Shown here one piece after another: positions 13,974-24,714 of a stretch of DNA of 64,000 bases. The number at the start of each line of letters is the position of its first letter. The stretch's first letter is position 1. The stretch is taken from the NCBI GenBank assembly GCA_964386715.1, contig CAYLTD010000002.1, forward strand, positions 109,449 to 173,448. Reading direction: 5' to 3'. The notes under the pieces are model-generated. The model was not told the DNA's origin and ran no database searches. It worked only from the letters and a program-made list of their open reading frames with translations. A program made the position numbers and the translations under genes. Origin of the DNA: an uncultured Bifidobacterium sp. (GTDB taxonomy: Bacteria; Acidobacteriota; Vicinamibacteria; Vicinamibacterales; CAVVIG01).

Positions 13974-16136
13974 TCAGCCCGACGTCGACGGCCCGGCCTC
14001 GTGCTCGTCCTGCTCGTCCGAGGCCTGGCGATGGCTCCAGGTCATGAGCGCGTCCTGCGCGCTGAAGGGCGGCTCGCCCGAAGCAGGAACGATTTTCTGA
14101 TACTTGCCCTCGCGCAGCACGTACGCACGCTGGTTGTCGCGCAGGTAGGCCTCGAGAACCACATCCCGCACGTGCCGGACGAGCCCGGTGTCCCGAATGC
14201 GGCAGAGCGTCTCGACCCGTCGGTCCAGGTTGCGCTCCATGAGATCCGCGCTGCCGATGTACAGCTCCTCGTCACCTCCATTGCGAAACCAGAAGATGCG
14301 TGAGTGTTCGAGGAAGCGGCCAACGATGGAGCGCACGCGGATGTGGTCGCTGATGCCGGGGATGCCGGGACGCAGGACGCACATGCCCCGGACGATCAGG
14401 TCGATCTGGACACCCGCGCGTGATGCACTGTAAAGGGCGCGGATCACCGCAGTGTCGGTGAGCCCGTTCACCTTCATGACGATGTGGGCCGTCTCGCCGC
14501 GAGTGGCGTGGGCCATCTCACGCTCGATGCGCGACAACAGCTCACGGCGCACACCGTTGGGCGCGACGAGCAGTTGCCGGAAGTTCCTGCGGCGTGAGTA
14601 GCCGGTCAGCGCGTTGAAGACGTCCGACACGTCGTCCACGATCGCGGGATCGGCGGTGAACAGCCCGAGGTCCGTGTACACCTGTGCCGTGCTGCGGTTG
14701 TAGTTGCCGGTACCGATGTGCACGTAACGCTGGATCCCGTACGGCTCGCGCCGGACCACCAGGCACAGCTTGGCGTGGGTCTTCAGCGCTTCCACGCCGT
14801 AGACGACGTGCACACCCGCGTCCTCCAGGCGCGTCGCCCATGCGATGTTGTTGCGCTCGTCGAAGCGTGCCTTCAGTTCCACCAGCACGGCCACCTGCTT
14901 GCCGGCCTCTGCTGCTTCGATCAGCAGCTCGATGAGCGGCGAGTTCTCGCCGATCCGGTACAGCGTCATCTTGATGGCCAGCACGTGGGGGTCGGTGGCC
15001 GCGTCGCGCACGAACGACTCCACGGCCCCGAACGAGTCGAACGGATGGTGCACGAGGATGTCTTCGGTGCGGATGTCGTCGAAGACGACCGAGCCGCGCC
15101 CCTCGGTGGGCCAGGTGGTGTGCGGGACCAGGGGCGGGTACTTGAGGCCGGCGAGGGGCAGCTTGTACAGGGCCGCCCAGTCGCAGAACGCCAGGCGCTC
15201 CCGGGTGCGCATCACCACATCGTCGTCCACGTCCAGGTTCTCCACGAGGAGTTCGAGGAGGCGGCGCGGCATGGTGTCCTCGACGTGCAGCAGCGAGGGC
15301 GGTCCGTCGCGCAGTTCGCGCAGGCTGCGGTGCACCTCCTCCATCAGGTCCTCGCCTGCGTTGCGCACGTCGATGTCGCTGTCCCGCACGACGCGAAACA
15401 GGTGCGCGCTGACCACCTCGACGCCTGGAAAGAGGTCGCCCAGGTGGGTGCGCACGATGTCCTCGAGGAAGGCGAAGCGGTGCGGCGCCTGACCCGCGCG
15501 GCCTGGCAGCGGGACGAAGCGTGGCAGCAACGCCGGGATCTTGAGGCGCGCCACGCGCAACCGCCGGTTGTGACGCACCAGTACGGCGATGTTGGTGCTG
15601 CGGTTCGAGATCTGCGGGAAGGGGTGGCCCGGATCGATCGCGAGCGGGGTGAGCAGGGGATAGACGTCGGCGGCAAAGTACGAACTAAGGTACGTGCGAG
15701 CGGCCTCGTCGTAGTCGTCGGGCTCGACGAACTCCACGCCGACCTTGGCGAGTGCCGGGCGGAGTTCCTCGTTCCAGCACGTGGCCTGGTTCTTCAGCAG
15801 AACGGACAGGCGGCGCCTCACCGCGCTGAGCTGCTGACCCACGGTGAGCCCATCGGGCCCGGCGTGCTCCTGCCCGGCGCGCTGCCAGCGGCGCAGCGAG
15901 GCCAGGCGCACCATGCAGAATTCGTCAAGGTTGGAGCCCACGATGGCGAGGAACCTGACACGCTCGAGGAGAGGGTGCGATCGGTCCCATGCCTGATCGA
16001 GAACGCGTTGGTGGAAATCGAGGGCACTCAGCTCACGATTGCCGTAGAGCGCCGTGTCGTCGAGGTTGGGTACTGCGTCGCTGCCGGCGTCGTGTGCTGG
16101 GGTGGGCACTCGCAGGGTCTGCGTCCGTGTGGCCAT
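13974..16136 (-). CDS. ppk1: Polyphosphate kinase 1
   Basis: NRELSALDFHQRVL, SNLDEFCMVR, DPGHPFPQISN, HHPFDSF, IKMTLYR, ELKARFDERNNI, KTHAK, HIGTGNYN, GRFLEHSRI, SADLMERNLDRRVE. ATG 16136 chosen as start. Confidence 0.96.
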   Translation of the reverse strand: MATRTQTLRVPTPAHDAGSDAVPNLDDTALYGNRELSALDFHQRVLDQAWDRSHPLLERVRFLAIVGSNLDEFCMVRLASLRRWQRAGQEHAGPDGLTVGQQLSAVRRRLSVLLKNQATCWNEELRPALAKVGVEFVEPDDYDEAARTYLSSYFAADVYPLLTPLAIDPGHPFPQISNRSTNIAVLVRHNRRLRVARLKIPALLPRFVPLPGRAGQAPHRFAFLEDIVRTHLGDLFPGVEVVSAHLFRVVRDSDIDVRNAGEDLMEEVHRSLRELRDGPPSLLHVEDTMPRRLLELLVENLDVDDDVVMRTRERLAFCDWAALYKLPLAGLKYPPLVPHTTWPTEGRGSVVFDDIRTEDILVHHPFDSFGAVESFVRDAATDPHVLAIKMTLYRIGENSPLIELLIEAAEAGKQVAVLVELKARFDERNNIAWATRLEDAGVHVVYGVEALKTHAKLCLVVRREPYGIQRYVHIGTGNYNRSTAQVYTDLGLFTADPAIVDDVSDVFNALTGYSRRRNFRQLLVAPNGVRRELLSRIEREMAHATRGETAHIVMKVNGLTDTAVIRALYSASRAGVQIDLIVRGMCVLRPGIPGISDHIRVRSIVGRFLEHSRIFWFRNGGDEELYIGSADLMERNLDRRVETLCRIRDTGLVRHVRDVVLEAYLRDNQRAYVLREGKYQKIVPASGEPPFSAQDALMTWSHRQASDEQDEHEAGPSTSG

Positions 16137-16254
16137 ACCGCTGGGACTCCATACAGGATGCGTGCCGAGTGGCTGAGGTCCACCGACGCCGGTCGTGCGG
16201 CACGGCCGACGGCTGGACCGTTCGGGCGGACGGATCTTTGCAGCCACCCCGCCG

Positions 16255-18099
16255 ATGCAACCAGGCGACGGGGAAGCTTGCCAGACGGGCCGTGGGTACC
16301 CGCGCCCGCAACTGCAGCGTGAGCGCTGGCAATCGCTGAACGGCGAATGGGACGCCGCACTCGACCACGACGGGCGATGGGACGAACCGGACCACGTGCC
16401 CTGGGATCGGATCATCCTGGTGCCGTTCTCGCCCGAGGTGGAACGAAGCGGCATCGCCGAACCGGGCTTCTTTCAGGCGGTGTGGTACCGGCGTACGGTC
16501 CCGTGTCCCACCCTCGCTCCCGACGACCGCTGGATCCTGCACTTCGGGGCGGTGGACTATCGGGCCACCATCTGGGCCGACGGTCGTGTGCTGGGCACGC
16601 ACGACGGGGGCTATACCCCCTTTTCGATCGATCTGACCGCGGCAGTGCCCGCCGACGGCTCCGCGATCACGCTGGTGGTGCGCGCCGAGGACGACCCCCA
16701 CGACCTTGCAAAGCCCCGTGGCAAGCAGGACTGGCAGCTCGATCCGCACTCGATTTGGTACCCGCGCACGAGCGGCATCTGGCAGACGGTCTGGACCGAG
16801 GTTGTGCCCGCGACGCGCATCGCCTCGCTGCGATGGACGCCGAACCTGGAGCGCTGGGAGATCGGGCTCGAAGCCCTGATCCACGGCGACTCGCGGGAGC
16901 GCCTGCGGATGAGGGTGCACCTGCGTGCCGGCGACGCCCTCATTGCGGACGACACGGTCACCGTGATCGCCGGCGAGGTGCACCGGCGCATTGCCCTCTC
17001 GGATCCCGGCATCGACGACTACCGCAACGAACTCCTCTGGAGCCCTGAGAAGCCGACGCTGATCGAGGCCGAGATCGAGCTGTGGGGTGACCGCGGCGAG
17101 CGGCTCGATCGCGTCCGCAGCTACACGGCCATCCGCTCGGTGGCCGCACAGCGTGACCGGTTCATGCTGAACGGCCGACCATACCCGATGCGCATGGTGC
17201 TCGATCAGGGGTACTGGCCGGGAGCCGGGCTCACTGCGCCAGACGACGATGCGCTGCGACGCGACGTCGAACTGGCCAAGGCCATGGGCTTCAACGGCGT
17301 CCGCAAGCACCAGAAGATCGAGGATCCGCGCTACCTGTACTGGGCCGACAGGCTCGGTTTGCTCGTCTGGGCGGAAATGCCCAGTGCGTATCGCTTCACC
17401 AAGGTATCGGTGGAGCGCGTGACGCGCGAGTGGATGGACGCGATAGCGCGCGACTACAGCCATCCGTCGGTCATCGCGTGGGTGCCGTTCAACGAGTCGT
17501 GGGGGGTGCCCAATTTGCCCGACAGCGCGCGCGAGCGCCACTACGTGCAGGCGCTCTACCACCTCACGAAAACCCTCGATCCCACGAGGCCCGTCATCGG
17601 CAACGACGGGTGGGAGAGCGTGGCCACCGACATGATTGGCATCCACGACTACGACGACGACCCGGGAAGGATGGCGCGTCGATACCAGGCCGACGAGGTC
17701 CTGCCGCGGCTGTTCCGACGCGAGCGGCCCGGCGGGCGCCTGCTCGTGCTGCACGAACAGCCCGCCACCGATCAGCCGATCGTGCTGTCGGAGTTCGGGG
17801 GCATTGCCTATTCGCCCGACCCCGCCACGTGGGGCTACACGCGATGCCAGGCGCCGGACGAACTCGAGGAGCGTTACACCGCCCTGCTCGACGTGGTTCG
17901 GAGCCTGCCCGTCCTCTGCGGGTTCTGCTACACGCAGTTCAGCGATACCTACCAGGAGGCCAACGGGCTCCTGTACGCCGACCGGACGCCCAAGTTCCCG
18001 CTGGCGTCCATCGCGCGCGCGACCCGGGGCCTGCGCGAGAGCCGCACGCTGGTGGTGGACCCCATCGAGGCTGCGCGCGGCTCGGAGACCGAGCGGTGA
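16255..18099 (+). CDS. Glycoside hydrolase family 2 (beta-galactosidase/beta-glucuronidase-like)
   Basis: YPRPQL, LHFGAVDY, PRGKQ, GFNGVRKHQK, acid/base FNESWG, nucleophile SEFGG, FCYTQ. Start uncertain (16195 or 16255). Confidence 0.9.
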   Translation: MQPGDGEACQTGRGYPRPQLQRERWQSLNGEWDAALDHDGRWDEPDHVPWDRIILVPFSPEVERSGIAEPGFFQAVWYRRTVPCPTLAPDDRWILHFGAVDYRATIWADGRVLGTHDGGYTPFSIDLTAAVPADGSAITLVVRAEDDPHDLAKPRGKQDWQLDPHSIWYPRTSGIWQTVWTEVVPATRIASLRWTPNLERWEIGLEALIHGDSRERLRMRVHLRAGDALIADDTVTVIAGEVHRRIALSDPGIDDYRNELLWSPEKPTLIEAEIELWGDRGERLDRVRSYTAIRSVAAQRDRFMLNGRPYPMRMVLDQGYWPGAGLTAPDDDALRRDVELAKAMGFNGVRKHQKIEDPRYLYWADRLGLLVWAEMPSAYRFTKVSVERVTREWMDAIARDYSHPSVIAWVPFNESWGVPNLPDSARERHYVQALYHLTKTLDPTRPVIGNDGWESVATDMIGIHDYDDDPGRMARRYQADEVLPRLFRRERPGGRLLVLHEQPATDQPIVLSEFGGIAYSPDPATWGYTRCQAPDELEERYTALLDVVRSLPVLCGFCYTQFSDTYQEANGLLYADRTPKFPLASIARATRGLRESRTLVVDPIEAARGSETER

Positions 18100-19187
18100 T
18101 GTTCACCGAGCGTTTTCGTAAGCCGGATGGTCGTGAGCTGCTGCTCTACGGGCGCGAGCCGGTCCGGGTCACGGCTCCCGTGCCGTCACCCTCCACGACG
18201 CCCCTTGCCCCCAACGCGCATCTGCGCTGGCACCCCCTGCGCGGCGAATGGGTCGCCTATGCCACGCATCGCCAGCACCGGACGTTCCTGCCGCCGGCCG
18301 CGTACAACCCTCTGGCCCCGACGACGGACCCGGCCCACCCGACCGAACTGCCGTCAGGCCAGTACGACGTCGCCGTCTTCGAGAACCTGTTTCCAGCGTT
18401 GACGGGGCTGGCGCACGATCCGCCCGACCTGGCCGGCATCCCCACGCGGCCGGCACACGGCGCGTGCGAGGTCGTGGTGTTCACGACCGATGCGCAGGGC
18501 TCGCTGGGATCGCTGCCGCTCGATCATCTGGCCCTGATCGTCGACGTGTGGGCGCAGCGGTACCTCGAGCTCGGGGCACGGCCGGACGTCGAGTACGTCT
18601 TCCCGTTCGAGAATCGCGGCGTCGAGGTCGGGGTGACACTGCATCATCCGCACGGGCAGATCTACGCGTATCCGTTCGTGCCGCCGATTCCGGCCCGCGA
18701 ACTCGCCCAGCAGCGCGCGTACCTGGAGGCCAACGGGCGCGGCCTGCTCGAGGATTTCGTCGCCAGGGAACTTGCCGAGGACCGCCGCACGCTGTACGTC
18801 GGGCCCTCGGTCGCAGCGTTCGTGCCCGCCTGCGCACGTTACCCCTACGAGGTCTGGGTGGCGCCGAAGCGGCCAGCCGCCTCGGTGGCGGCGCTGACCG
18901 ACGAGGAGCGGCTCGACTTCGCCCGCGCCCTGAAGCACACGCTGACCACGTTCGATGCGCTGTGGGGGACGCCCTTCCCCTACATCATGGCGTTTCACCA
19001 GGCACCGACCGACGGCGACGCCCATCCAGAGGCGCATCTGCACGTCGAGTTCTACCCGGCGTATCGGATGAAGGGTCGGTTGAAGTACCTCGCGGGCAGC
19101 GAAATCGGCGCCGGCGTCTTCACGGCAGACACCGATCCGGACGAGCGGGCGGCGGAGTTGCGGCGCGCACAGGTGTCGCGTGCCTGA
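18099..19187 (+). CDS. galT: Galactose-1-phosphate uridylyltransferase
   Basis: LRWHPLRGEWV, FENLFP, FENRG..VGVTLHHPHGQ (HxHxQ), YPYEVW; TGATG overlap with the GH2 stop. Confidence 0.93.
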   Translation: MFTERFRKPDGRELLLYGREPVRVTAPVPSPSTTPLAPNAHLRWHPLRGEWVAYATHRQHRTFLPPAAYNPLAPTTDPAHPTELPSGQYDVAVFENLFPALTGLAHDPPDLAGIPTRPAHGACEVVVFTTDAQGSLGSLPLDHLALIVDVWAQRYLELGARPDVEYVFPFENRGVEVGVTLHHPHGQIYAYPFVPPIPARELAQQRAYLEANGRGLLEDFVARELAEDRRTLYVGPSVAAFVPACARYPYEVWVAPKRPAASVAALTDEERLDFARALKHTLTTFDALWGTPFPYIMAFHQAPTDGDAHPEAHLHVEFYPAYRMKGRLKYLAGSEIGAGVFTADTDPDERAAELRRAQVSRA

Positions 19188-20280
19188 GCCACGGGAGCTG
19201 TTCGCACAGGTATTCGGCGGCACCGCTGACGTCGCCGTCACTGCGCACGGCCGCGTCAACCTGATAGGTGAGCACACCGACTACAACGACGGCTTCGTGC
19301 TGCCACTCGCGATTCCACAGGCGACCACCGTCCTTGCCGCAAGCCGTCCGGACGAGCGCGTGCGCCTGTGGAGTGCGAATGTGTCGCACCCGGCGTCGGG
19401 AGCCGAGTTCACGCTCGGCGAGGAGCGGAGGACGGGCACCTGGACCGACTACGTCCAGGGAGTGACGCAGGCCCTCCACGCAGGCGGACATCGCCTTGGC
19501 GGCGCGGACCTGTACGTCGCGTCCGACATCCCGGTCGGGGCCGGACTCTCGTCGAGTGCCGCCCTGGAGGTTGCGACCGTGCGAGCCTTCGCGGCGTTGT
19601 ACGGATTCGCGATCACGCCCCTCGAGTCGGCGCGCGTCGCGCACGAGGCCGAGGTGTCGTTCGTGGGGGTGCCCGTCGGCGTGATGGATCAGATGGCGTC
19701 GGCCATGGCTCGCACCGACGCGGCTTTGTTCATCGACACCCGCAGCCGCAGCGTCGAGCAGGTGCCCCTGCCGCGGGAGGTGGAACTGCTCGTCATCGAC
19801 TCCGCCGTGCCGCACGCGCACGCCGGCGGGGAGTACCGGACCAGGCGTCGGGAATGCGACGAGGCGGCCCGCCTGCTGGGCGTGGCAGCGCTGCGCGATG
19901 CGACACCCGAGAGCCTGCAATCCGCCGGGCTGCCCCCGCCGCTCGACAGGCGCGCACGGCACGTCCTCACTGAAAACGAACGCGTGCTCGAGATGCGTGC
20001 CGCGCTGCACGCGGCCAACGTGCCGGCTGCCGGCGCGCTGATGAATGCGTCCCACCGGTCGATGCGGGACGACTTCGAGGTCTCGACGGCCGAAGTCGAC
20101 GTGCTGGTCGACCTCGCGCAGTCGACCGACGGAGTCGCGGGGGCGCGCCTCACCGGCGGAGGCTTCGGCGGGTGCATCGTCGCGCTCGTCGCACGCGGCA
20201 GGGCGGCCGACGTGGGCCACGACGTGGTGCGGAAGTATGTCCAGCGGGTCGGCCGGCCCGCACGGGTGCTCGTCCCGTAG
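19180..20280 (+). CDS. galK: Galactokinase (GHMP family)
   Basis: GRVNLIGEHTDYNDG, PVGAGLSSSAALE, GVMDQ, GARLTGGGFGG; GTG start overlapping galT. Confidence 0.95.
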   Translation: MPEPRELFAQVFGGTADVAVTAHGRVNLIGEHTDYNDGFVLPLAIPQATTVLAASRPDERVRLWSANVSHPASGAEFTLGEERRTGTWTDYVQGVTQALHAGGHRLGGADLYVASDIPVGAGLSSSAALEVATVRAFAALYGFAITPLESARVAHEAEVSFVGVPVGVMDQMASAMARTDAALFIDTRSRSVEQVPLPREVELLVIDSAVPHAHAGGEYRTRRRECDEAARLLGVAALRDATPESLQSAGLPPPLDRRARHVLTENERVLEMRAALHAANVPAAGALMNASHRSMRDDFEVSTAEVDVLVDLAQSTDGVAGARLTGGGFGGCIVALVARGRAADVGHDVVRKYVQRVGRPARVLVP

Positions 20281-20358
20281 GCGCAGGGCGTCCGCGGTCG
20301 AGCGTGGCGAGCCCGGCAGGTGCGGGCACGGAAATTGGAGAGCACCTGACGGGTGACC

Positions 20359-21465
20359 ATGGACATTCTGTGCCTGTCCCATCTGCGGTGGGACTTCGTC
20401 TTTCAGCGGCCGCAGCATCTGCTCACGCGCGCCGCGCGCGAGGCCCGTGTGTTCTACGTGGAGGAGCCGGTGCTGCGCGATGGGCCTCCGGTGATGGAGC
20501 ATCGCGCCGTGACGCCGACCCTGCGCATCCTCACGCCTCATCTGCCCACAGGCAGCTCCCCGGCGGACCAGGCCCGCCTGCAGGCGGGACTGCTGCAGGA
20601 TCTGGTCGCGGAGCAGGACGTGACGCAGTTCGTGCTCTGGTACTACACACCGATGGCGCTGGCGTTCACGCACCAGCTGACCCCGTCGGCGGTGATCTAC
20701 GACTGCATGGACGAGTTGTCGGCCTTCGACGGGGCGCCCCCTGAACTGCGACAACGGGAGCAGGAGCTCTTTGCGACGGCCGATGTCGTGTTCACCGGCG
20801 GCCAGTCCCTGTACGAGGCCAAGCGCACACAGCATCACAACGTCCATGCGTTCCCGAGCAGCGTGGATGTCGCGCACTTCGCCCGCGCGCGCCAGGGCGG
20901 CGAGGAGGTCGAGGGCCAACGGGCGCTTCCTCGTCCGCGCATCGGGTTCTACGGCGTGATCGACGAGCGCATGGACTACGCGCTGCTGCGCGGCGTCGCC
21001 GCGGCACGATCGGACTGGCAGCTGGTGATGATCGGTCCCACCGCGAAGGTGGACCCCGCCGCGTTGCCGCAGGCGCGCAACATCCACTATCTCGGAGGCC
21101 GTCCCTACGAGCGTCTGCCCGACTACCTCCGAAGCTGGGACGTCGCGATGCTGCCGTTTGCGAAGAACGCGGCGACGCGCTTCATCAGCCCGACGAAGAC
21201 GCCGGAGTACCTCGCCGCCGGTCTGCCTGTCGTGTCCACGTCCATCCGGGACGTGGTGCGGCCGTACGGGGAGCTGGGGCTGGCGCGGATCGCGGACACC
21301 GTGGACGACTTCGTGGCCGCCGTCGACGCGGCGTTGACCGACGACCGGGCGGCCCATCGGCGCGCCGCCGACGACTTCCTCCGGAACCTCTCCTGGGATC
21401 GCACCTGGGAGGCCATGCGACGGCAACTGGCGAACGTCGCCGAAAGGCGGACTACACGTGTTTGA
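20359..21465 (+). CDS. Glycosyltransferase (GT-B, GT4/GT1-like) associated with glf
   Basis: CLSHLRWDFVFQRPQHL, WYYTPMA, YDCMDELS, GFYGVIDER, ISPTKTPEYLAAGLPVVST. Start 20353 (GTG) or 20359 (ATG). Confidence 0.88.
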   Translation: MDILCLSHLRWDFVFQRPQHLLTRAAREARVFYVEEPVLRDGPPVMEHRAVTPTLRILTPHLPTGSSPADQARLQAGLLQDLVAEQDVTQFVLWYYTPMALAFTHQLTPSAVIYDCMDELSAFDGAPPELRQREQELFATADVVFTGGQSLYEAKRTQHHNVHAFPSSVDVAHFARARQGGEEVEGQRALPRPRIGFYGVIDERMDYALLRGVAAARSDWQLVMIGPTAKVDPAALPQARNIHYLGGRPYERLPDYLRSWDVAMLPFAKNAATRFISPTKTPEYLAAGLPVVSTSIRDVVRPYGELGLARIADTVDDFVAAVDAALTDDRAAHRRAADDFLRNLSWDRTWEAMRRQLANVAERRTTRV

Positions 21466-22573
21466 TTACCTGATCATCGGCGCCGGGTTCGCCGGCAGCG
21501 TGCTCGCGGAACGCCTCGCCGCCGGCATGGACAAGAAGGTGCTCGTCGTCGACAAGCGCCCGCACATCGGCGGCAACGCCTACGATCACTACAACGAAGA
21601 CGGCCTGCTCGTGCACCGCTATGGGCCGCACATCTTTCACACGAACTCGAAAGAGGTCTTCGCCTATCTCTCGCGGTTCACGGAGTGGTTTCCGTACCAG
21701 CATCGCGTCCGAGCCTGGGTGGACGGGCAGCTCGTCCCCATCCCGATCAACCTCGACACGATCAACCGCCTGTACGGCACCAGCTTCACAGCGATGGAGC
21801 TCGCCGGGTTCTACAAGTCGCTCGCCGAGGCCCGCGATCCGGTACGAACGTCGGAGGACGTGATCGTCAGCCAGGTAGGGCGGGAGCTGTACGAGAAGTT
21901 CTTCCGCAACTACACGCGCAAGCAGTGGGGACTGGACCCCTCCGAACTCGACGCCGCGGTGACTGCCCGCGTGCCGGTGCGCACCAACCGGGACGACCGT
22001 TACTTCACCGACACGTACCAGGCCATGCCGAAGCACGGCTACACGCGCATGTTCGAGCGCATGCTCGCGCATCCGAACATCAAGATCCTGCTCAATACCG
22101 ACTACAGGGAAATCGAAGGGTCGATCCTGTACGACGAGGTCATCTGCACCGGCCCGATCGACGAGTACTTCGACTGCCAGTTCGGCAAGCTGCCGTACCG
22201 CTCGCTCGAGTTCCGCCACGAGACGCTCGATGCGCCGCAGGTGCAGGAAGTCGCGGTCGTGAACTACCCGAACGACCACCTGTACACGCGGGTCACCGAG
22301 TTCAAGCACCTCACGGGTCAGGTGCACCCGAAGACGGCACGCGTCTACGAGTACCCGCAGGCGGAAGGGGACCCGTACTACCCGATCCCGCGCCCGGAGA
22401 ACGCGGCGCTGTACAAGCGATACCAGGAGCTGGCCGACCGGACGCCGGGCGTGCACTTCGTCGGCCGCCTCGGAACCTACCGCTACTACAACATGGATCA
22501 GGTCGTGGCGCAGGCGCTGACGCTCTTCTCGAAGATCGCGGGCGTCCGTCGATCCGACTGCGTCGGGGCATGA
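21458..22573 (+). CDS. glf: UDP-galactopyranose mutase
   Basis: IIGAGFAG, HIGGNAYD, HRYGPHIFHTN, YTRKQWG, RYFTD.YQ, YPN...TRVTEFKH, DPYYP, GRLGTYRYYNMDQ. Confidence 0.97.
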   Translation: MFDYLIIGAGFAGSVLAERLAAGMDKKVLVVDKRPHIGGNAYDHYNEDGLLVHRYGPHIFHTNSKEVFAYLSRFTEWFPYQHRVRAWVDGQLVPIPINLDTINRLYGTSFTAMELAGFYKSLAEARDPVRTSEDVIVSQVGRELYEKFFRNYTRKQWGLDPSELDAAVTARVPVRTNRDDRYFTDTYQAMPKHGYTRMFERMLAHPNIKILLNTDYREIEGSILYDEVICTGPIDEYFDCQFGKLPYRSLEFRHETLDAPQVQEVAVVNYPNDHLYTRVTEFKHLTGQVHPKTARVYEYPQAEGDPYYPIPRPENAALYKRYQELADRTPGVHFVGRLGTYRYYNMDQVVAQALTLFSKIAGVRRSDCVGA

Positions 22574-24714
22574 CGTCGCGGGCCGGGCCGATCGAGTTGT
22601 GGGGCGGCATCGAGTGCACCATCAACAGGGTGCACGACCGCTACAACGACCAGCTCACGCGTGTGTCGGCCTATGACGTCGACCGGCTGGTCGACCTCAT
22701 TGCTGGGCTCGGCTTCCGCGTCGTCAGGTGGCCGGTGCTGTGGGAGCGCACTGCGCCCGCCGGTCTGCAGTCGGCCGACTGGGACTGGTGCACGCGGTCG
22801 CTGGAGGCCCTGCGCGACCGCGGCATCGAACCAATCGTGGGGCTCGTGCACCACGGGAGCGGTCCACCCGACACGCACCTGCTCGACCCGCAGTTTCCGT
22901 CGCGGCTAGCCGCCTACGCAACGGCCGTGGCCGAGCGTTTCCCGTGGGTGCGGTTCTTCACACCGGTCAACGAGCCCCTGACGACCGCGCGCTTCTCCGG
23001 CCTGTACGGACACTGGTACCCCCATCGGGCCGACGATGCCTCGTTCCTGAGAGCCCTCGACCACCAGGTCGCCGGCACGCTCGAGGCGATGCGAGCCATC
23101 CGGCAGGTGATCCCCGCGGCCAGGCTGATCCAGACCGAGGATGCGGGCAGCACGCAGGCCACCGCACCGCTGCGCGAGCAAGCTGCCTTCGAGAACGCAC
23201 GACGCTGGCTCAGCCTCGACCTGCTCTCGGGCCGCGTGGCACAGGACCATGCGCTGGTCCCGTACCTCGATCGCCATGGGCTCACGGAGGAACGTCGGGC
23301 CTGGTTCGGCGAGCATGCGATCGTACCGGACGTGATCGGCCTGAACTACTACGTCACCAGCGACCGCTTCCTCGATCACCGGCTCTCCCGCCATCCTTCG
23401 CACACCCACGGCGGCAACGGGCGCCAGAGGTACGCCGACGTCGAGGCCGCGCGGACCCCGGACGCCAGCGTGCGCGGTCACGAAGCGGTGCTGGTCGAGG
23501 CGTGGACGCGGTACGGAACCCCCGTCGCAATCACGGAGGCACACCTCGGCTGCACTCGCGAGGAACAGATCCGCTGGCTGCGTGACGCCTGGGTCGGTGC
23601 GCACGCGGCCCGCGCCCGTGGGGCAGACGTGCGCGCGGTCACGCTGTGGGCGCTCCTCGGCTCGACCGACTGGGACTCGCTCGTGACGCGTGACGCCGGC
23701 CACTACGAACCGGGAGCGTTCGACATGCGGGCGCCGACACCGCGCCCGACAGCCCTTGCCGCGGCCGCCGTCACGATCTCACGCGAGGGTCGCCTCGCAC
23801 ATCCGGCGGCGGACGGTCCGGGGTGGTGGGACCACCGGGCGCCGGCGCTTCCCGGGCGCCGCCCGATCGTGGTCCTCGGCGCCACGGGAACCCTCGGTTA
23901 CGCCACGCTGCGCGCCTGCGAGCGCCGCGGCCTCGCCGCGGTGGCGGTGTCCCGTCACGACCTCGACCTCTCCGACGTGTCGTCGGTACTCACGATGCTC
24001 GCGGCTCACCGTCCCTGGGCCGTGGTGAACGCCGCGGGGTACGTGCGTGTGGACGATGCCGAGCGCGAGGTCCGCGCCTGCCGCCGCGTGAACGCGGTCG
24101 TGCCCGCGGTGCTGGCACTCGCCTGTCGGAAAGCCGGGGTCGCGCTGGCGACCTTCTCATCCGATCTGGTCTTCGACGGGGCGACCGACGTGCCGTATCG
24201 CGAGTCGGACCGGGTCCAGCCTCTGAACGTCTACGGGCACAGCAAGGCCGAAGCGGAGCATCGCGTGATGGCCCTGGACCCGAAGGCGCTCGTCATCCGC
24301 ACGAGCGCCTTCTTCGGACCGTGGGATCGGGCGAACTTCGTCACGCACGCGCTCGAGCGCCTCGCCGCGCGCCAGCCGCTCCGGGCACCCTCCGACGTGA
24401 CGGTGTCGCCCACCTACGTGCCCGACCTGGTGGACGCGACGCTCGATCTGCTGGTGGACGGGGCAGGGGGGCTGTGGCACCTCGCCAACGACGGAGCCGT
24501 CAGCTGGTACGAGCTGGCGCAGCTGGCGGCGCGGCACGTGGGGCTCGTGCCGTCCACGCTCGAACCGTGCTCGAACGATTCGCTCCAACTGCCGGCCACG
24601 CGGCCGAGGTATTCCGCGCTGAGCACGTCGCGCGGCGCGCTGATGCCGTCGCTCGAGGATGCCCTCGTTCGCTACGTCTACCAGCGCGCAGGCGCGGCGA
24701 GCAACGCTGCCTAG
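22570..24714 (+). CDS. Fusion protein: N-terminal GH1-like glycosidase plus C-terminal RmlD-like SDR (sugar-nucleotide reductase)
   Basis: ATGA overlap with glf. GH1-type VNEPL and ITEAH; then GATGTLG, VVNAAGYVRVDDAE, FSSDLVFDG, YGHSK, SPTYVPDL, RPRYSAL. Confidence 0.85.
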   Translation: MTSRAGPIELWGGIECTINRVHDRYNDQLTRVSAYDVDRLVDLIAGLGFRVVRWPVLWERTAPAGLQSADWDWCTRSLEALRDRGIEPIVGLVHHGSGPPDTHLLDPQFPSRLAAYATAVAERFPWVRFFTPVNEPLTTARFSGLYGHWYPHRADDASFLRALDHQVAGTLEAMRAIRQVIPAARLIQTEDAGSTQATAPLREQAAFENARRWLSLDLLSGRVAQDHALVPYLDRHGLTEERRAWFGEHAIVPDVIGLNYYVTSDRFLDHRLSRHPSHTHGGNGRQRYADVEAARTPDASVRGHEAVLVEAWTRYGTPVAITEAHLGCTREEQIRWLRDAWVGAHAARARGADVRAVTLWALLGSTDWDSLVTRDAGHYEPGAFDMRAPTPRPTALAAAAVTISREGRLAHPAADGPGWWDHRAPALPGRRPIVVLGATGTLGYATLRACERRGLAAVAVSRHDLDLSDVSSVLTMLAAHRPWAVVNAAGYVRVDDAEREVRACRRVNAVVPAVLALACRKAGVALATFSSDLVFDGATDVPYRESDRVQPLNVYGHSKAEAEHRVMALDPKALVIRTSAFFGPWDRANFVTHALERLAARQPLRAPSDVTVSPTYVPDLVDATLDLLVDGAGGLWHLANDGAVSWYELAQLAARHVGLVPSTLEPCSNDSLQLPATRPRYSALSTSRGALMPSLEDALVRYVYQRAGAASNAA

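What the first reader, a model, noticed from the sequence alone, without database searches (positions are those of the whole stretch)
16255..24714. Complete scavenging-to-galactofuranose operon with two glycosidases and no galE
Seen: GH2-galT-galK are coupled by overlaps, and after a 72-78 bp gap GT-glf-(GH1::RmlD) are coupled by overlaps. Catalytic motifs are intact in all six. Known: GalK+GalT give UDP-Galp and Glf gives UDP-Galf. Inference: the glycosidases release galactose, which is routed straight to Galf for a GT4-built glycoconjugate. The lack of export or polymerase genes and of evident signal peptides suggests a cytoplasmic Galf product that is made and recycled (e.g. a stress solute, glycolipid or storage glycoside) whose identity I cannot assign.
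Basis: partly seen in the sequence, partly recalled or inferred. Interest (0 to 1): 0.55.

Follow-up and report, generated by a model that had tools for sequence, protein, structure and literature searches.

The report
Cytoplasmic galactofuranose make-and-recycle operon
Six soluble enzymes in a soil Acidobacterium appear to build an unidentified galactofuranose compound inside the cell, break it down and re-activate the released galactose, and the core of this gene set is conserved but uncharacterised in about ten bacterial phyla.

Summary
Six co-directional genes lie at 16255-24714: GH2, galT, galK, then after a 78-bp gap GT, glf and a GH1-like::RmlD-like fusion. Each triplet is joined by 1-8 nt overlaps, and the catalytic motifs are intact.

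- **GH2.** It is not a LacZ-type galactosidase. It belongs to the furanosidase branch of GH2 and keeps the residues that bind galactofuranose O5/O6 in the Streptomyces Galf-ase.
- **Core triad.** GT-glf-fusion recurs in most of 79 loci from about ten phyla. Gene fusions tie its parts together: GT::Glf and GT::GH1-like barrel.
- **Recycling genes.** GH2, galK, galT or galE join the triad in 25 of 42 fully flanked loci. Within the genus, GH2, glf and the fusion are found together or all missing, apart from one fusion-less variant.
- **Location.** No protein has a signal peptide or membrane segment. No export or priming gene recurs.
- **"No galE".** This is only local: a galE lies about 80 kb away, and many related loci carry one.

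Best reading: a cytoplasmic galactofuranoside is made, tailored, hydrolysed and recycled. Its identity and the fusion's reaction are unknown. This scan met the core cassette before on other DNA. No paper describing it was found.

The parts
16255..18099 (+). GH2 glycosidase of the furanosidase branch (GH2 group III, GH2_19-like). Probably an intracellular beta-D-galactofuranosidase.
   Evidence: - Pfam finds the GH2 N, Ig and TIM domains.
- PDB matches: 7XYR 334 bits, 7SF2 238, Streptomyces Galf-ase 9J6N 227; LacZ and GUS score below 95.
- K157, Y169, H352, N413, E414, E513 and E568 match ORF1110 K212, Y228, H401, N463, E464, E530 and E594.
- These residues are conserved in 24 cassette-linked homologues.
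- No signal peptide.
18099..19187 (+). galT, galactose-1-phosphate uridylyltransferase
   Evidence: TIGR00209 157.5 bits against a cut-off of 102.1. HPHGQ at residues 183-187. Its ATG overlaps the GH2 stop by 1 nt.
19180..20280 (+). galK, galactokinase
   Evidence: TIGR00131 305 bits against a cut-off of 226.65. GEHTDY and PVGAGLSSS motifs. 8-nt overlap with galT.
20359..21465 (+). GT-B glycosyltransferase (TuaH-like, Glyco_trans_1_4), the presumed UDP-Galf-using transferase
   Evidence: - PF13692 44.6 bits; weak TuaH match of 87.7 bits.
- AF2 pLDDT 90; nearest folds are MshA, sucrose-phosphate synthase, OtsA, the MMP mannosyltransferase, PimA and BshA.
- The same family is fused to Glf in Nostoc punctiforme and many others, and to a GH1-like barrel in P0241 and P0266.
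21458..22573 (+). glf, UDP-galactopyranose mutase
   Evidence: TIGR00031 398.4 bits against a cut-off of 303.75; PF03275 270.7 bits. GAGFAG FAD motif. 8-nt overlap with GT.
22570..24714 (+). Fusion protein, 714 aa: GH1-like barrel (residues about 8-406), linker, RmlD-like SDR (residues about 432-713)
   Evidence: - Pfam and NCBIfam matches.
- AF2 pLDDT 86, pTM 0.88.
- Foldseek: C-domain TM 0.91 to RmlD 1VL0; N-domain about 0.70 to the Thermotoga GH1.
- Catalytic residues of both halves are invariant in 81 sequences from about ten phyla.
22591..23787 (+). GH1-like (beta/alpha)8 barrel domain of the fusion
   Evidence: TPVNEP aligns with the GH1 acid/base motif. AITEAH aligns with the ITENG nucleophile. 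LWALLGSTDW aligns with WSLLDNFEW.
23863..24711 (+). RmlD-like NAD(P)-binding reductase domain of the fusion
   Evidence: TIGR01214 scores 221.6-224.5 bits against a cut-off of 224.05. GATGTLG, S531, Y555 and K559 are present. The domain is 39% identical to the genome's stand-alone RmlD-like gene.

Best explanation
The six genes encode a self-contained cytoplasmic pathway that makes, tailors, degrades and recycles a galactofuranose (Galf) glycoside of unknown identity.

1. GalK and GalT turn free galactose into UDP-galactopyranose. A GalE elsewhere in the genome can also supply it. These assignments rest on family scores and motifs.
2. Glf contracts the ring to give UDP-Galf. This also rests on family assignment.
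3. The TuaH-like GT-B transferase takes UDP-Galf directly from Glf and glycosylates a soluble or cytoplasmic acceptor, either a small metabolite or a growing oligosaccharide. This is inferred from conserved adjacency and natural GT::Glf fusions.
4. The GH1-like::RmlD-like fusion works on the transferase's product. The barrel trims or transglycosylates a beta-glycoside. The reductase half carries out an NAD(P)H-dependent carbonyl reduction on that product or on the released moiety. That the fusion belongs to the pathway is inferred from synteny and GT::barrel fusions. Its chemistry is a guess.
5. The intracellular GH2 furanosidase releases Galf. The free sugar re-equilibrates to the pyranose form and re-enters at step 1. 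This is inferred from active-site conservation and co-inheritance.

The block is an accessory, horizontally mobile module enriched in soil and terrestrial bacteria. That fits a storage or stress-protective compound better than a core envelope component.
For: **Gene identities and coupling:**

**GH2**
- It belongs to the furanosidase group.
- It has 7 of the 8 ORF1110 Galf-binding and catalytic residues, including the O5/O6 binders. These are conserved in 24 linked homologues.
- GH2_19 members are about 90% non-secreted.
- The linked GH2 and GH43 proteins lack signal peptides in several phyla.

**Synteny**
- A GT lies within 3.5 kb of the fusion in 48 of 60 loci, and a mutase in 44 of 60.
- GH2, galK, galT or galE lies within 10 kb in 25 of 42 loci.

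**Rosetta-stone fusions and replacement**
- GT::Glf.
- GT::GH1-like barrel.
- In Gemmatimonadota, Glf is replaced by a non-orthologous long UGM-like flavoprotein.

**Genome-level co-occurrence**
- Where synteny is broken, all 5 genomes tested still carry Glf and the GT.
- Within the genus, the 4 congeners with the fusion have GH2 and glf in the window's order. One congener has GH2-galT-galK-GT-glf-galE. The 4 other congeners tested, plus one genome of another genus in the family, have neither GH2, glf nor the fusion.

**Other**
- No export, priming or polymerase family appears among neighbour clusters found in at least 3 of the 79 loci.
- The GT's nearest folds are enzymes that glycosylate soluble acceptors or cytoplasmic polysaccharides.
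- Both catalytic centres of the fusion are invariant.
Against: - No product is known and none can be derived from sequence.
- A GT-B of GT4 type would normally retain configuration and give alpha-Galf, whereas GH2 group III and GH1 enzymes cleave beta-linkages. The GT's stereochemistry is untested: it lacks EX7E and has an invariant His after beta-1.
- One congener has the operon without the fusion, so the fusion is not obligatory.
- An MFS transporter sits in 5 related loci and a HAD phosphatase in 3, so variants may import or export.
- Beta-Galf has been reported in one Nostoc exopolysaccharide (PMC12266578).
- Synthesis and hydrolysis in one operon would be a futile cycle unless it is regulated.
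- No promoter or terminator evidence shows whether there is one transcript or two.
Confidence: 0.5

Rival explanations
1. It is a catabolic module for imported galactofuranosides, for example fungal or lichen galactomannan fragments or a non-reducing Galf disaccharide. GH2 and the GH1-like barrel hydrolyse them, and GalK/GalT feed the Leloir route. The GT works in reverse like sucrose synthase (Galf-OR + UDP gives UDP-Galf). Glf then pulls UDP-Galf to the favoured UDP-Galp.
For: - GH2-galT-galK looks like a sugar-utilisation operon.
- An MFS sugar-type transporter lies directly upstream of GH2 in Archangium and occurs in 4 cyanobacterial loci.
- Extra intracellular GH43 and stand-alone GH1-like hydrolases sit in related loci.
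- The Glf equilibrium favours the pyranose nucleotide, and sucrose synthase is a reversible GT4 (established knowledge).
- The GT's fold neighbours include sucrose-phosphate synthase.
Against: - This genome has no homologue of the MFS, GH43, M24 or PhyH genes that accompany the cassette elsewhere.
- No conserved regulator or transporter was found in the 79 loci.
- Free Galf needs no mutase to enter the Leloir route.
- Reversing a GT on an ordinary glycoside is thermodynamically unfavourable (inference).
- The GT-Glf-fusion core is more conserved than the hydrolase and Leloir genes.
- Many carriers are photoautotrophic cyanobacteria.
Confidence: 0.2
2. The GT, Glf and fusion contribute a Galf (or Galf plus 6-deoxyhexose) unit to a surface glycan such as LPS, EPS or an S-layer glycan. 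Its priming, flipping and polymerising genes lie elsewhere. GH2, GalK and GalT only salvage galactose.
For: - All characterised bacterial uses of Glf are envelope glycans (established knowledge).
- Beta-D-Galf has been reported in the Nostoc sphaeroides polysaccharide NS0-1 (PMC12266578).
- The RmlD-like half scores at the RmlD cut-off.
- The best named hit for the GT is teichuronic-acid TuaH.
- The genome has rmlC and rmlB-like genes on contigs C4 and C29.
Against: - No membrane-bound or polyprenyl-linked enzyme, flippase, ABC exporter or polymerase appears near the cassette in any of the 79 loci from about ten phyla.
- The cassette occurs in phyla with very different envelopes.
- It is patchy within one genus: 4 of 11 congeners.
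- An intracellular Galf-ase co-inherited with the biosynthetic genes is hard to explain for an exported polymer.
- A stand-alone RmlD-like gene already exists in a separate sugar cluster.
Confidence: 0.2
3. Two unrelated units are merely adjacent: a galactoside-utilisation operon (GH2-galT-galK) and a separate glycan operon (GT-glf-fusion).
For: A 78-bp gap separates the two overlap-coupled triplets. Many related loci have the triad alone.
Against: - GH2, galT and galK homologues at 57-72% identity lie beside the triad in Acidobacteria, Cyanobacteria, Myxococcota, Geomonas and Ramlibacter, in different orders and orientations.
- The genes are jointly present or jointly absent in the congeners tested.
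- The GH2 is a furanosidase type matched to the Glf product.
Confidence: 0.07

Closest known systems
Streptomyces sp. JHA19 ORF1110 beta-D-galactofuranosidase (GH2_18; PDB 9J6M/9J6N), and GH2 group III in general (GH2_18/GH2_19; PDB 7XYR)
   Same: - Three-domain GH2 architecture, with an NE acid/base and a Glu nucleophile.
- The O2, O3, O5 and O6 ligands K212, Y228, H401, N463 and E594 are conserved.
- There is no LacZ- or GUS-like similarity.
- The absence of a signal peptide is typical of GH2_19.
   Different: - It is only distantly related to ORF1110 (227 bits), and that enzyme is secreted and carries a CBM42-like AbfB domain.
- The window's enzyme is nearer to 7XYR. That entry was deposited as a glucuronidase, lacks the NE motif and is regarded as uncharacterised.
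- Activity is untested.
- Here the gene is translationally coupled to galT-galK.
Leloir pathway operons (galETK) combined with glf in O-antigen, EPS and arabinogalactan biosynthesis
   Same: GalK, GalT and Glf are clear members of their families. UDP-Galp to UDP-Galf is the expected flux.
   Different: - There is no galE in the locus.
- There is no GT2- or GT111-type galactofuranosyltransferase.
- There is no priming transferase, flippase, polymerase or ABC exporter.
- All proteins are soluble, and a Galf-ase is in the same operon.
Cytoplasmic glycoside or glycan make-and-break modules: sucrose-phosphate synthase with invertase, OtsA/TreH, MshA and BshA small-molecule glycosylation, and the mycobacterial methylmannose-polysaccharide cluster (GT4 ManT plus a hydrolase)
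   Same: A soluble GT-B transferase whose nearest folds are exactly these enzymes. It is paired with dedicated intracellular hydrolases and has no export machinery.
   Different: The donor would be UDP-Galf, which is unprecedented for these systems. The minimal version has no phosphatase or methyltransferase. The acceptor is unknown. The GT lacks the EX7E motif.
dTDP-4-dehydrorhamnose reductase RmlD (PDB 1VL0, 1KBZ, 4WPG)
   Same: The fold matches (TM 0.91). The glycine-rich NAD(P) motif and the S/T-Y-K triad are present. The TIGR01214 score is at the cut-off.
   Different: - It is fused behind a GH1-like barrel.
- It is not next to rmlA, rmlB or rmlC.
- The genome has a separate RmlD-like gene.
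- The substrate is unknown.
Uncharacterised GT::Glf / GH1-like::RmlD-like / GalE cassette seen earlier in this scan, for example in Nostoc punctiforme
   Same: The same three protein families at 50-75% identity and the same order, GT-glf-fusion.
   Different: Here GT and Glf are separate genes. galE is absent from the locus. The cassette is welded to GH2-galT-galK, the minimal version with a full recycling arm.

Membership tests
Galactokinase (GalK, GHMP kinase) | Equivalog HMM above the cut-off; galactose-binding signature GEHxDY; GHMP motif PxGxGLSSS | tested here: met
   TIGR00131 305.2 bits against 226.65. PF10509, PF00288 and PF08544 match. Motifs at residues 30 and 118.
Galactose-1-phosphate uridylyltransferase (GalT, type 1) | Equivalog HMM above the cut-off; HPH active-site motif | tested here: met
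   TIGR00209 157.5 bits against 102.1. HPHGQ at 183-187.
UDP-galactopyranose mutase (Glf) | Equivalog HMM above the cut-off; FAD-binding GxGxxG; GLF domain | tested here: met
   TIGR00031 398.4 bits against 303.75. PF03275 270.7 bits. GAGFAG at residue 8.
GH2 group III furanosidases (GH2_18/GH2_19) | GH2 three-domain architecture with NE acid/base and Glu nucleophile | tested here: met
   PF02837, PF00703 and PF02836 match. N413-E414 and E513 are aligned to ORF1110 N463-E464 and E530.
GH2 group III furanosidases (GH2_18/GH2_19) | Closer to group III structures than to any galactosidase, glucuronidase or mannosidase | tested here: met
   7XYR 334 bits, 7SF2 238, 9J6N 227; the next best is below 95. 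The group definition comes from PMC12243196.
GH2 group III furanosidases (GH2_18/GH2_19) | Galf O5/O6 recognition residues (ORF1110 K212, Y228, E594, Y551) | tested here: met
   K157, Y169 and E568 are aligned and invariant in 24 homologues. The equivalent of Y551 is probably Y528, but the alignment is uncertain there.
GH2 group III furanosidases (GH2_18/GH2_19) | Formal CAZy subfamily HMM assignment and measured Galf-ase or Araf-ase activity | not testable with these tools
Glycosyltransferase family 4 (retaining GT-B) | GT-B fold with a Glycos_transf_1-type C-terminal domain | tested here: met
   PF13692 44.6 bits against 27. PF00534 26.4 bits, exactly at its cut-off. AF2 model pLDDT 90; top folds are MshA, SPS, PimA, WaaG and BshA.
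Glycosyltransferase family 4 (retaining GT-B) | EX7E motif in the C-terminal domain | tested here: not met
   The only E.{7}E match is at residue 28, in the N-terminal domain. The donor-site segment reads ISPTKTPEYLAAG, with only the second Glu, E283.
Glycosyltransferase family 4 (retaining GT-B) | Retention of anomeric configuration; donor identity | not testable with these tools
   UDP-Galf as donor is inferred from GT::Glf fusions.
Glycoside hydrolase family 1 | (beta/alpha)8 fold with an NEP acid/base and a TE-x nucleophile on strands 4 and 7 | tested here: met
   PF00232 40.8 bits against 22.6. Motif alignment to 1GNX and 4R27. Foldseek TM about 0.70 to the Thermotoga GH1. E135 and E323 are invariant in 81 sequences.
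Glycoside hydrolase family 1 | Ordinary beta-glucosidase or 6-phospho-beta-glycosidase equivalog | tested here: not met
   TIGR03356 51.5 bits against a cut-off of 478.5. The glycone Glu of NFEW is replaced by Asp (D367).
dTDP-4-dehydrorhamnose reductase (RmlD) | Equivalog HMM score, NAD(P) motif and S/T-Y-K triad | tested here: inconclusive
   TIGR01214 scores 221.6 bits on the protein and 224.5 bits in the genome search, against a cut-off of 224.05. GATGTLG, S531, Y555 and K559 are present and invariant. The triad definition comes from PMC4832382.
dTDP-4-dehydrorhamnose reductase (RmlD) | Pathway context with rmlA, rmlB and rmlC | tested here: not met
   None lies in the window locus or recurs in the 79 loci. 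rmlC is on contigs C4 and C29, where a stand-alone RmlD-like gene also lies.
Envelope Galf-glycan loci (O-antigen, EPS, arabinogalactan type) | Polyprenyl-phosphate priming transferase, flippase or ABC exporter, polymerase, membrane-associated Galf-transferase | tested here: not met
   The flanks are ppk1 and a copper P-type ATPase. No such family appears among neighbour clusters recurring in at least 3 of the 79 loci.

The most novel reading that the evidence does not exclude
The cassette makes a so far undiscovered cytoplasmic galactofuranose metabolite. This could be a non-reducing Galf disaccharide or a short, possibly cyclic, oligogalactofuranoside whose reducing end or aglycone is processed by the glycosidase-reductase fusion. 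The compound would serve as a stress solute or carbon store in terrestrial bacteria of about ten phyla, with its own furanosidase and Leloir recycling loop. That would be the first intracellular role for galactofuranose and the first function for the GH1-like::RmlD-like family.
Probability: 0.3. Interest if true: 0.8.

Novelty: new variant of a known kind. Interest (0 to 1): 0.55.

Why it matters
- **A possible new role for galactofuranose.** In bacteria Galf is known almost only as a building block of exported envelope glycans, and it attracts interest because animals lack it. A conserved, fully soluble set of enzymes that couples UDP-Galf synthesis to an intracellular furanosidase and galactose re-activation points to an unrecognised intracellular Galf compound.
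- **A wide and ecologically important distribution.** The carriers include soil Acidobacteria, biocrust and symbiotic cyanobacteria, and Gemmatimonadota.
- **Three unassigned families.** Identifying the product would give a function to the TuaH-like GT, the GH1-like::RmlD-like fusion and cytoplasmic GH2_19.
- **A compact test case.** This window is the minimal six-gene version with no accessory genes. That makes it a clean template for in vitro reconstitution.

Tried and rejected
- Context came from the search for related loci plus my own ORF clustering instead.
- **Literature.** Searches for the fusion or the cassette found nothing relevant. The only Galf report for a carrier genus is a Nostoc EPS.
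- **Promoter and terminator scan.** It was uninformative: 0 promoter-like sites and only weak terminator-like sites.
- **Neighbours of the fusion where synteny is broken.** In Massilia, Noviherbaspirillum, Longilinea and Cnuella they gave no common partner.
- **The fusion as the cell's RmlD.** Rejected. A separate RmlD-like gene exists and there is no rmlABC context.
- **GH2 as a lactose-type galactosidase or glucuronidase.** Rejected on similarity and active-site residues.
- **P0394 as a GT::barrel::RmlD triple fusion.** Rejected. Its flanks are low-complexity and show no GT similarity.
- **A barrel::aminotransferase fusion (P0451).** This is a singleton and was kept only as a lead.
- **Homologues of the accessory PhyH, GH43, M24-like and MFS genes.** None was found in this genome.

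Full report
**1. What is in the sequence.**

The window is high-GC (about 69%), and GC3-filtered ORFs give one clear reading. There are six genes on the + strand:
- GH2, 16255-18099.
- galT, 18099-19187. Its ATG shares one base with the GH2 TGA.
- galK, 19180-20280, an 8-nt overlap.
- A 78-nt gap.
- GT, 20359-21465.
- glf, 21458-22573, an 8-nt overlap.
- A 714-aa fusion, 22570-24714, an ATGA overlap.

Pfam and NCBIfam place galK, galT and glf above their equivalog cut-offs. The expected motifs are present. The flanks are a divergent ppk1 and a convergent copper P-type ATPase. None of the six proteins has a signal peptide or a membrane segment by hydropathy.

**2. The GH2 is a furanosidase type.**

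- Against PDB sequences it scores 334 bits with 7XYR, 238 with 7SF2 and 227 with 9J6N. 9J6N is the Galf-specific beta-D-galactofuranosidase ORF1110 of Streptomyces sp. JHA19. All LacZ and GUS entries score below 95.
- The 2025 subdivision of GH2 puts 9J6M (GH2_18) and 7XYR (GH2_19) in "group III". That is the only part of the family with furanosidase activities, and GH2_19 is about 90% non-secreted (PMC12243196).
- The ORF1110 complex defines the residues that hold the Galf analogue: K212, Y228, H401, N463, E464, E530, Y551 and E594. K212, Y228 and E594 grip O5/O6 and discriminate Galf from Araf (PMC11627007).
- In the HMMER alignment these correspond to K157, Y169, H352, N413, E414, E513 and E568 of the window protein. 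The Y551 position is uncertain and is probably Y528.
- All of them are conserved in 24 cassette-linked GH2 homologues down to 28% identity.
- Caveat: 7XYR is deposited as a glucuronidase. It lacks the NE motif, and the CAZy authors treat it as uncharacterised.

**3. The fusion.**

- The N-terminal half aligns with GH1 enzymes through the acid/base (TPVNEP), the nucleophile (AITEAH) and the WSLLDNFEW-type strand, here LWALLGSTDW.
- The C-terminal half scores at the RmlD equivalog cut-off and keeps GATGTLG, S531, Y555 and K559. The triad definition is from PMC4832382.
- An AF2 model is confident as a whole (pLDDT 86, pTM 0.88).
- Foldseek matches RmlD structures (TM 0.91) and GH1 beta-glucosidases (TM about 0.70).
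- Across 81 sequences from about ten phyla, every catalytic residue of both halves is invariant.
- It is not the cell's RmlD. A stand-alone RmlD-like gene, 39% identical, sits in a separate deoxysugar cluster, and no rmlABC genes accompany the fusion.

**4. The transferase.**

- The GT has no sequence relative in the PDB. Its best named HMM hit is a weak one to TuaH.
- Its AF2 model (pLDDT 90) is a GT-B fold.
- The nearest folds are MshA, sucrose-phosphate synthase, OtsA, the mycobacterial methylmannose-polysaccharide mannosyltransferase, PimA, BshA and a pterin glucosyltransferase. These enzymes use soluble acceptors or cytoplasmic polysaccharides.
- It lacks the EX7E motif of GT4, and it has an invariant His right after strand 1 and an invariant YDCMDE segment. 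I therefore leave its stereochemistry open.

**5. Comparative evidence.**

*Distribution.* The fusion has thousands of homologues. The barrel alone gives 493 clusters (50% identity) at E <= 1e-30 among 1.84 billion representatives. At least 596 species-level genomes carry the fusion. The best 79 loci come from:
- Cyanobacteria, 32.
- Acidobacteriota, 24.
- Burkholderiales, 7.
- Gemmatimonadota, 5.
- Chloroflexota, 3.
- Armatimonadota/Abditibacteriota, 3.
- Bacteroidota, 2.
- Myxococcota, Geomonas and Actinomycetes, 1 each.

*Synteny.*
- tblastn and ORF clustering show the GT within 3.5 kb in 48 of 60 loci and a mutase in 44 of 60.
- At least one of GH2, galK, galT or galE lies within 10 kb in 25 of 42 fully flanked loci.
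- Gene orders and orientations differ between phyla.
- A galE-cluster gene is present in 19 loci, in most of them just after the fusion. Three representatives score above the TIGR01179 cut-off.

*Fusions and replacement.*
- In 22 cyanobacterial loci and in Longilinea, GT and Glf are one ORF. Deposited proteins of Nostoc punctiforme and many others confirm this.
- Other members of the same GT family carry a C-terminal GH1-like barrel (P0241, P0266).
- In Gemmatimonadota the short Glf is replaced by a long UGM-like flavoprotein that aligns end to end with Glf.
- Together these tie the transferase, the mutase activity, the barrel and, through the fusion, the reductase into one pathway.

*Genome-level co-occurrence.*
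- Where the fusion stands alone, the genome still has Glf and the GT elsewhere (5 of 5).
- The fusion occurs in 4 of 11 congeners, and in none of the 19 genomes from other genera of the family and order that were searched.
- In those four congeners, GH2 and glf lie in the window's order.
- One congener has GH2-galT-galK-GT-glf-galE without the fusion.
- Four other congeners, plus one genome of another genus in the family, lack GH2, glf and the fusion together.
- The block is thus an accessory unit gained or lost whole.

**6. What is not there.**

- No priming transferase, flippase, exporter or polymerase occurs in the window or among neighbour families that recur in the 79 loci.
- Recurrent extras are a PhyH-type dioxygenase (16 loci), an intracellular GH43 (12), an M24-fold hydrolase (9), an MFS transporter (5), stand-alone GH1-like barrels and a HAD phosphatase (3).
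- tblastn with the cassette-linked PhyH, GH43, M24-like and MFS proteins found no homologue in this genome. The window therefore holds the minimal version.
- galE is absent from the locus. It is present at contig C2:45861-46823 (423 bits against a cut-off of 262), about 80 kb upstream. The genome is 99.6% complete.

**7. Interpretation.**

The reading that fits best is a cytoplasmic galactofuranoside cycle:
1. Galactose goes to UDP-Galp through GalK and GalT, with GalE as a second source.
2. Glf converts UDP-Galp to UDP-Galf.
3. The GT passes Galf to an unknown acceptor.
4. The fusion tailors or trims the product.
5. GH2 hydrolyses it, and the released galactose returns to step 1.

The gene identities are shown. 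The links between steps are inferred from synteny, fusions and co-inheritance. The fusion's chemistry and the product are not known.

Three rivals remain, and I give them about 0.2, 0.2 and 0.07:
- **Catabolism of imported galactofuranosides.** This would need the GT to run in reverse, like sucrose synthase.
- **A contribution to a surface glycan made with genes elsewhere.** One Nostoc EPS is reported to contain beta-Galf (PMC12266578).
- **Chance adjacency of two operons.**

A point against my own model: a GT4-type transferase would give alpha-Galf, whereas the linked hydrolases are beta-specific. Also, one congener does without the fusion.

**8. Novelty.**

Every domain belongs to a known superfamily. 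However, full-text searches found no description of the fusion, of this GT family or of the cassette. Earlier notes of this scan had met the core GT/Glf/fusion cassette on other DNA and reached the same "product unknown, perhaps recycled" view. I re-tested their main claims here.

What this window adds is the compact six-gene form, in which a furanosidase-type GH2 and the Leloir salvage genes are translationally coupled upstream of the core.

I class it as a new variant of a known kind, Galf glycoconjugate metabolism, with moderate to good interest.

Noticed in passing
window 13974-16454 (-): The ppk1 ORF runs to ATG 16454 and would overlap the GH2 start. However, the PPK N-domain begins only at residue 137. 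An ATG at about 16136 gives a typical PPK1 N-terminus, which leaves a divergent intergenic region of about 118 bp before GH2.
   Followed up: partly
L099 (G013:C59:60000-78000): A congener carries GH2-galT-galK-GT-glf-galE, with galE where the fusion sits in the window. No fusion orthologue was found in that genome (96% complete). Only a weak 32% GH1-like hit appears on another contig.
   Followed up: yes
G011:C4:1029669-1030773: In one congener the glf match is split into two pieces (residues 1-112 and 108-368) in different open frames. This may be a frameshift, a pseudogene or an assembly error.
   Followed up: no
L079:12160-13704, also L055, L067, L039: Gemmatimonadota loci read GT - fusion - a 515-aa FAD protein. 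That protein aligns end to end with Glf at 20% identity and carries GGHV.FSH and RGRFGSWRYEVGNMDH motifs. It is a long UGM-like mutase replacing the short bacterial Glf.
   Followed up: partly
P0241, P0266 (about 800 aa); P0451 (822 aa): The GT family also occurs fused to a C-terminal GH1-like barrel. The barrel is 27-28% identical to the fusion's barrel and keeps both Glu contexts. One metagenomic singleton fuses the barrel to a class-III aminotransferase instead of the reductase. That hints that the barrel's partner domain acts on a carbonyl.
   Followed up: partly
L030:4282-12229: Filamentous cyanobacterium CCP2 has two fusion genes in divergent orientation around one GT::Glf gene.
   Followed up: no
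L027:3221-3910; also L011, L063: A HAD-family phosphatase ORF abuts the fusion gene's end in a Chloroflexia MAG and recurs in two other loci. This may be a sign of a phosphorylated intermediate in some lineages.
   Followed up: no
Cyanobacterial loci, e.g. L012:1290-4238, L016:4789-5886, L028: A PhyH-type dioxygenase, an intracellular GH43 and an M24-fold hydrolase recur beside the cassette. The M24 gene sits between galT and galK in L016 and L074. PhyH also lies next to the fusion in an Armatimonadaceae MAG and an Actinomycetes MAG. None has a homologue in the window's genome.
   Followed up: partly
G000 contig C29:11160-25300 and C4:145055-147505: The genome has two separate deoxysugar clusters. 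One holds a stand-alone RmlD-like gene (213 bits, just under the cut-off), an rmlC and several SDR genes. The other holds an rmlC and an RmlB-like gene without an adjacent rmlD.
   Followed up: no
L073 versus L053: A contig labelled Cyanobacteriota has the same gene order and similar identities as a Vicinamibacterales contig (GH2 on the opposite strand, GT, glf, fusion, galK). The bin may be mislabelled.
   Followed up: no
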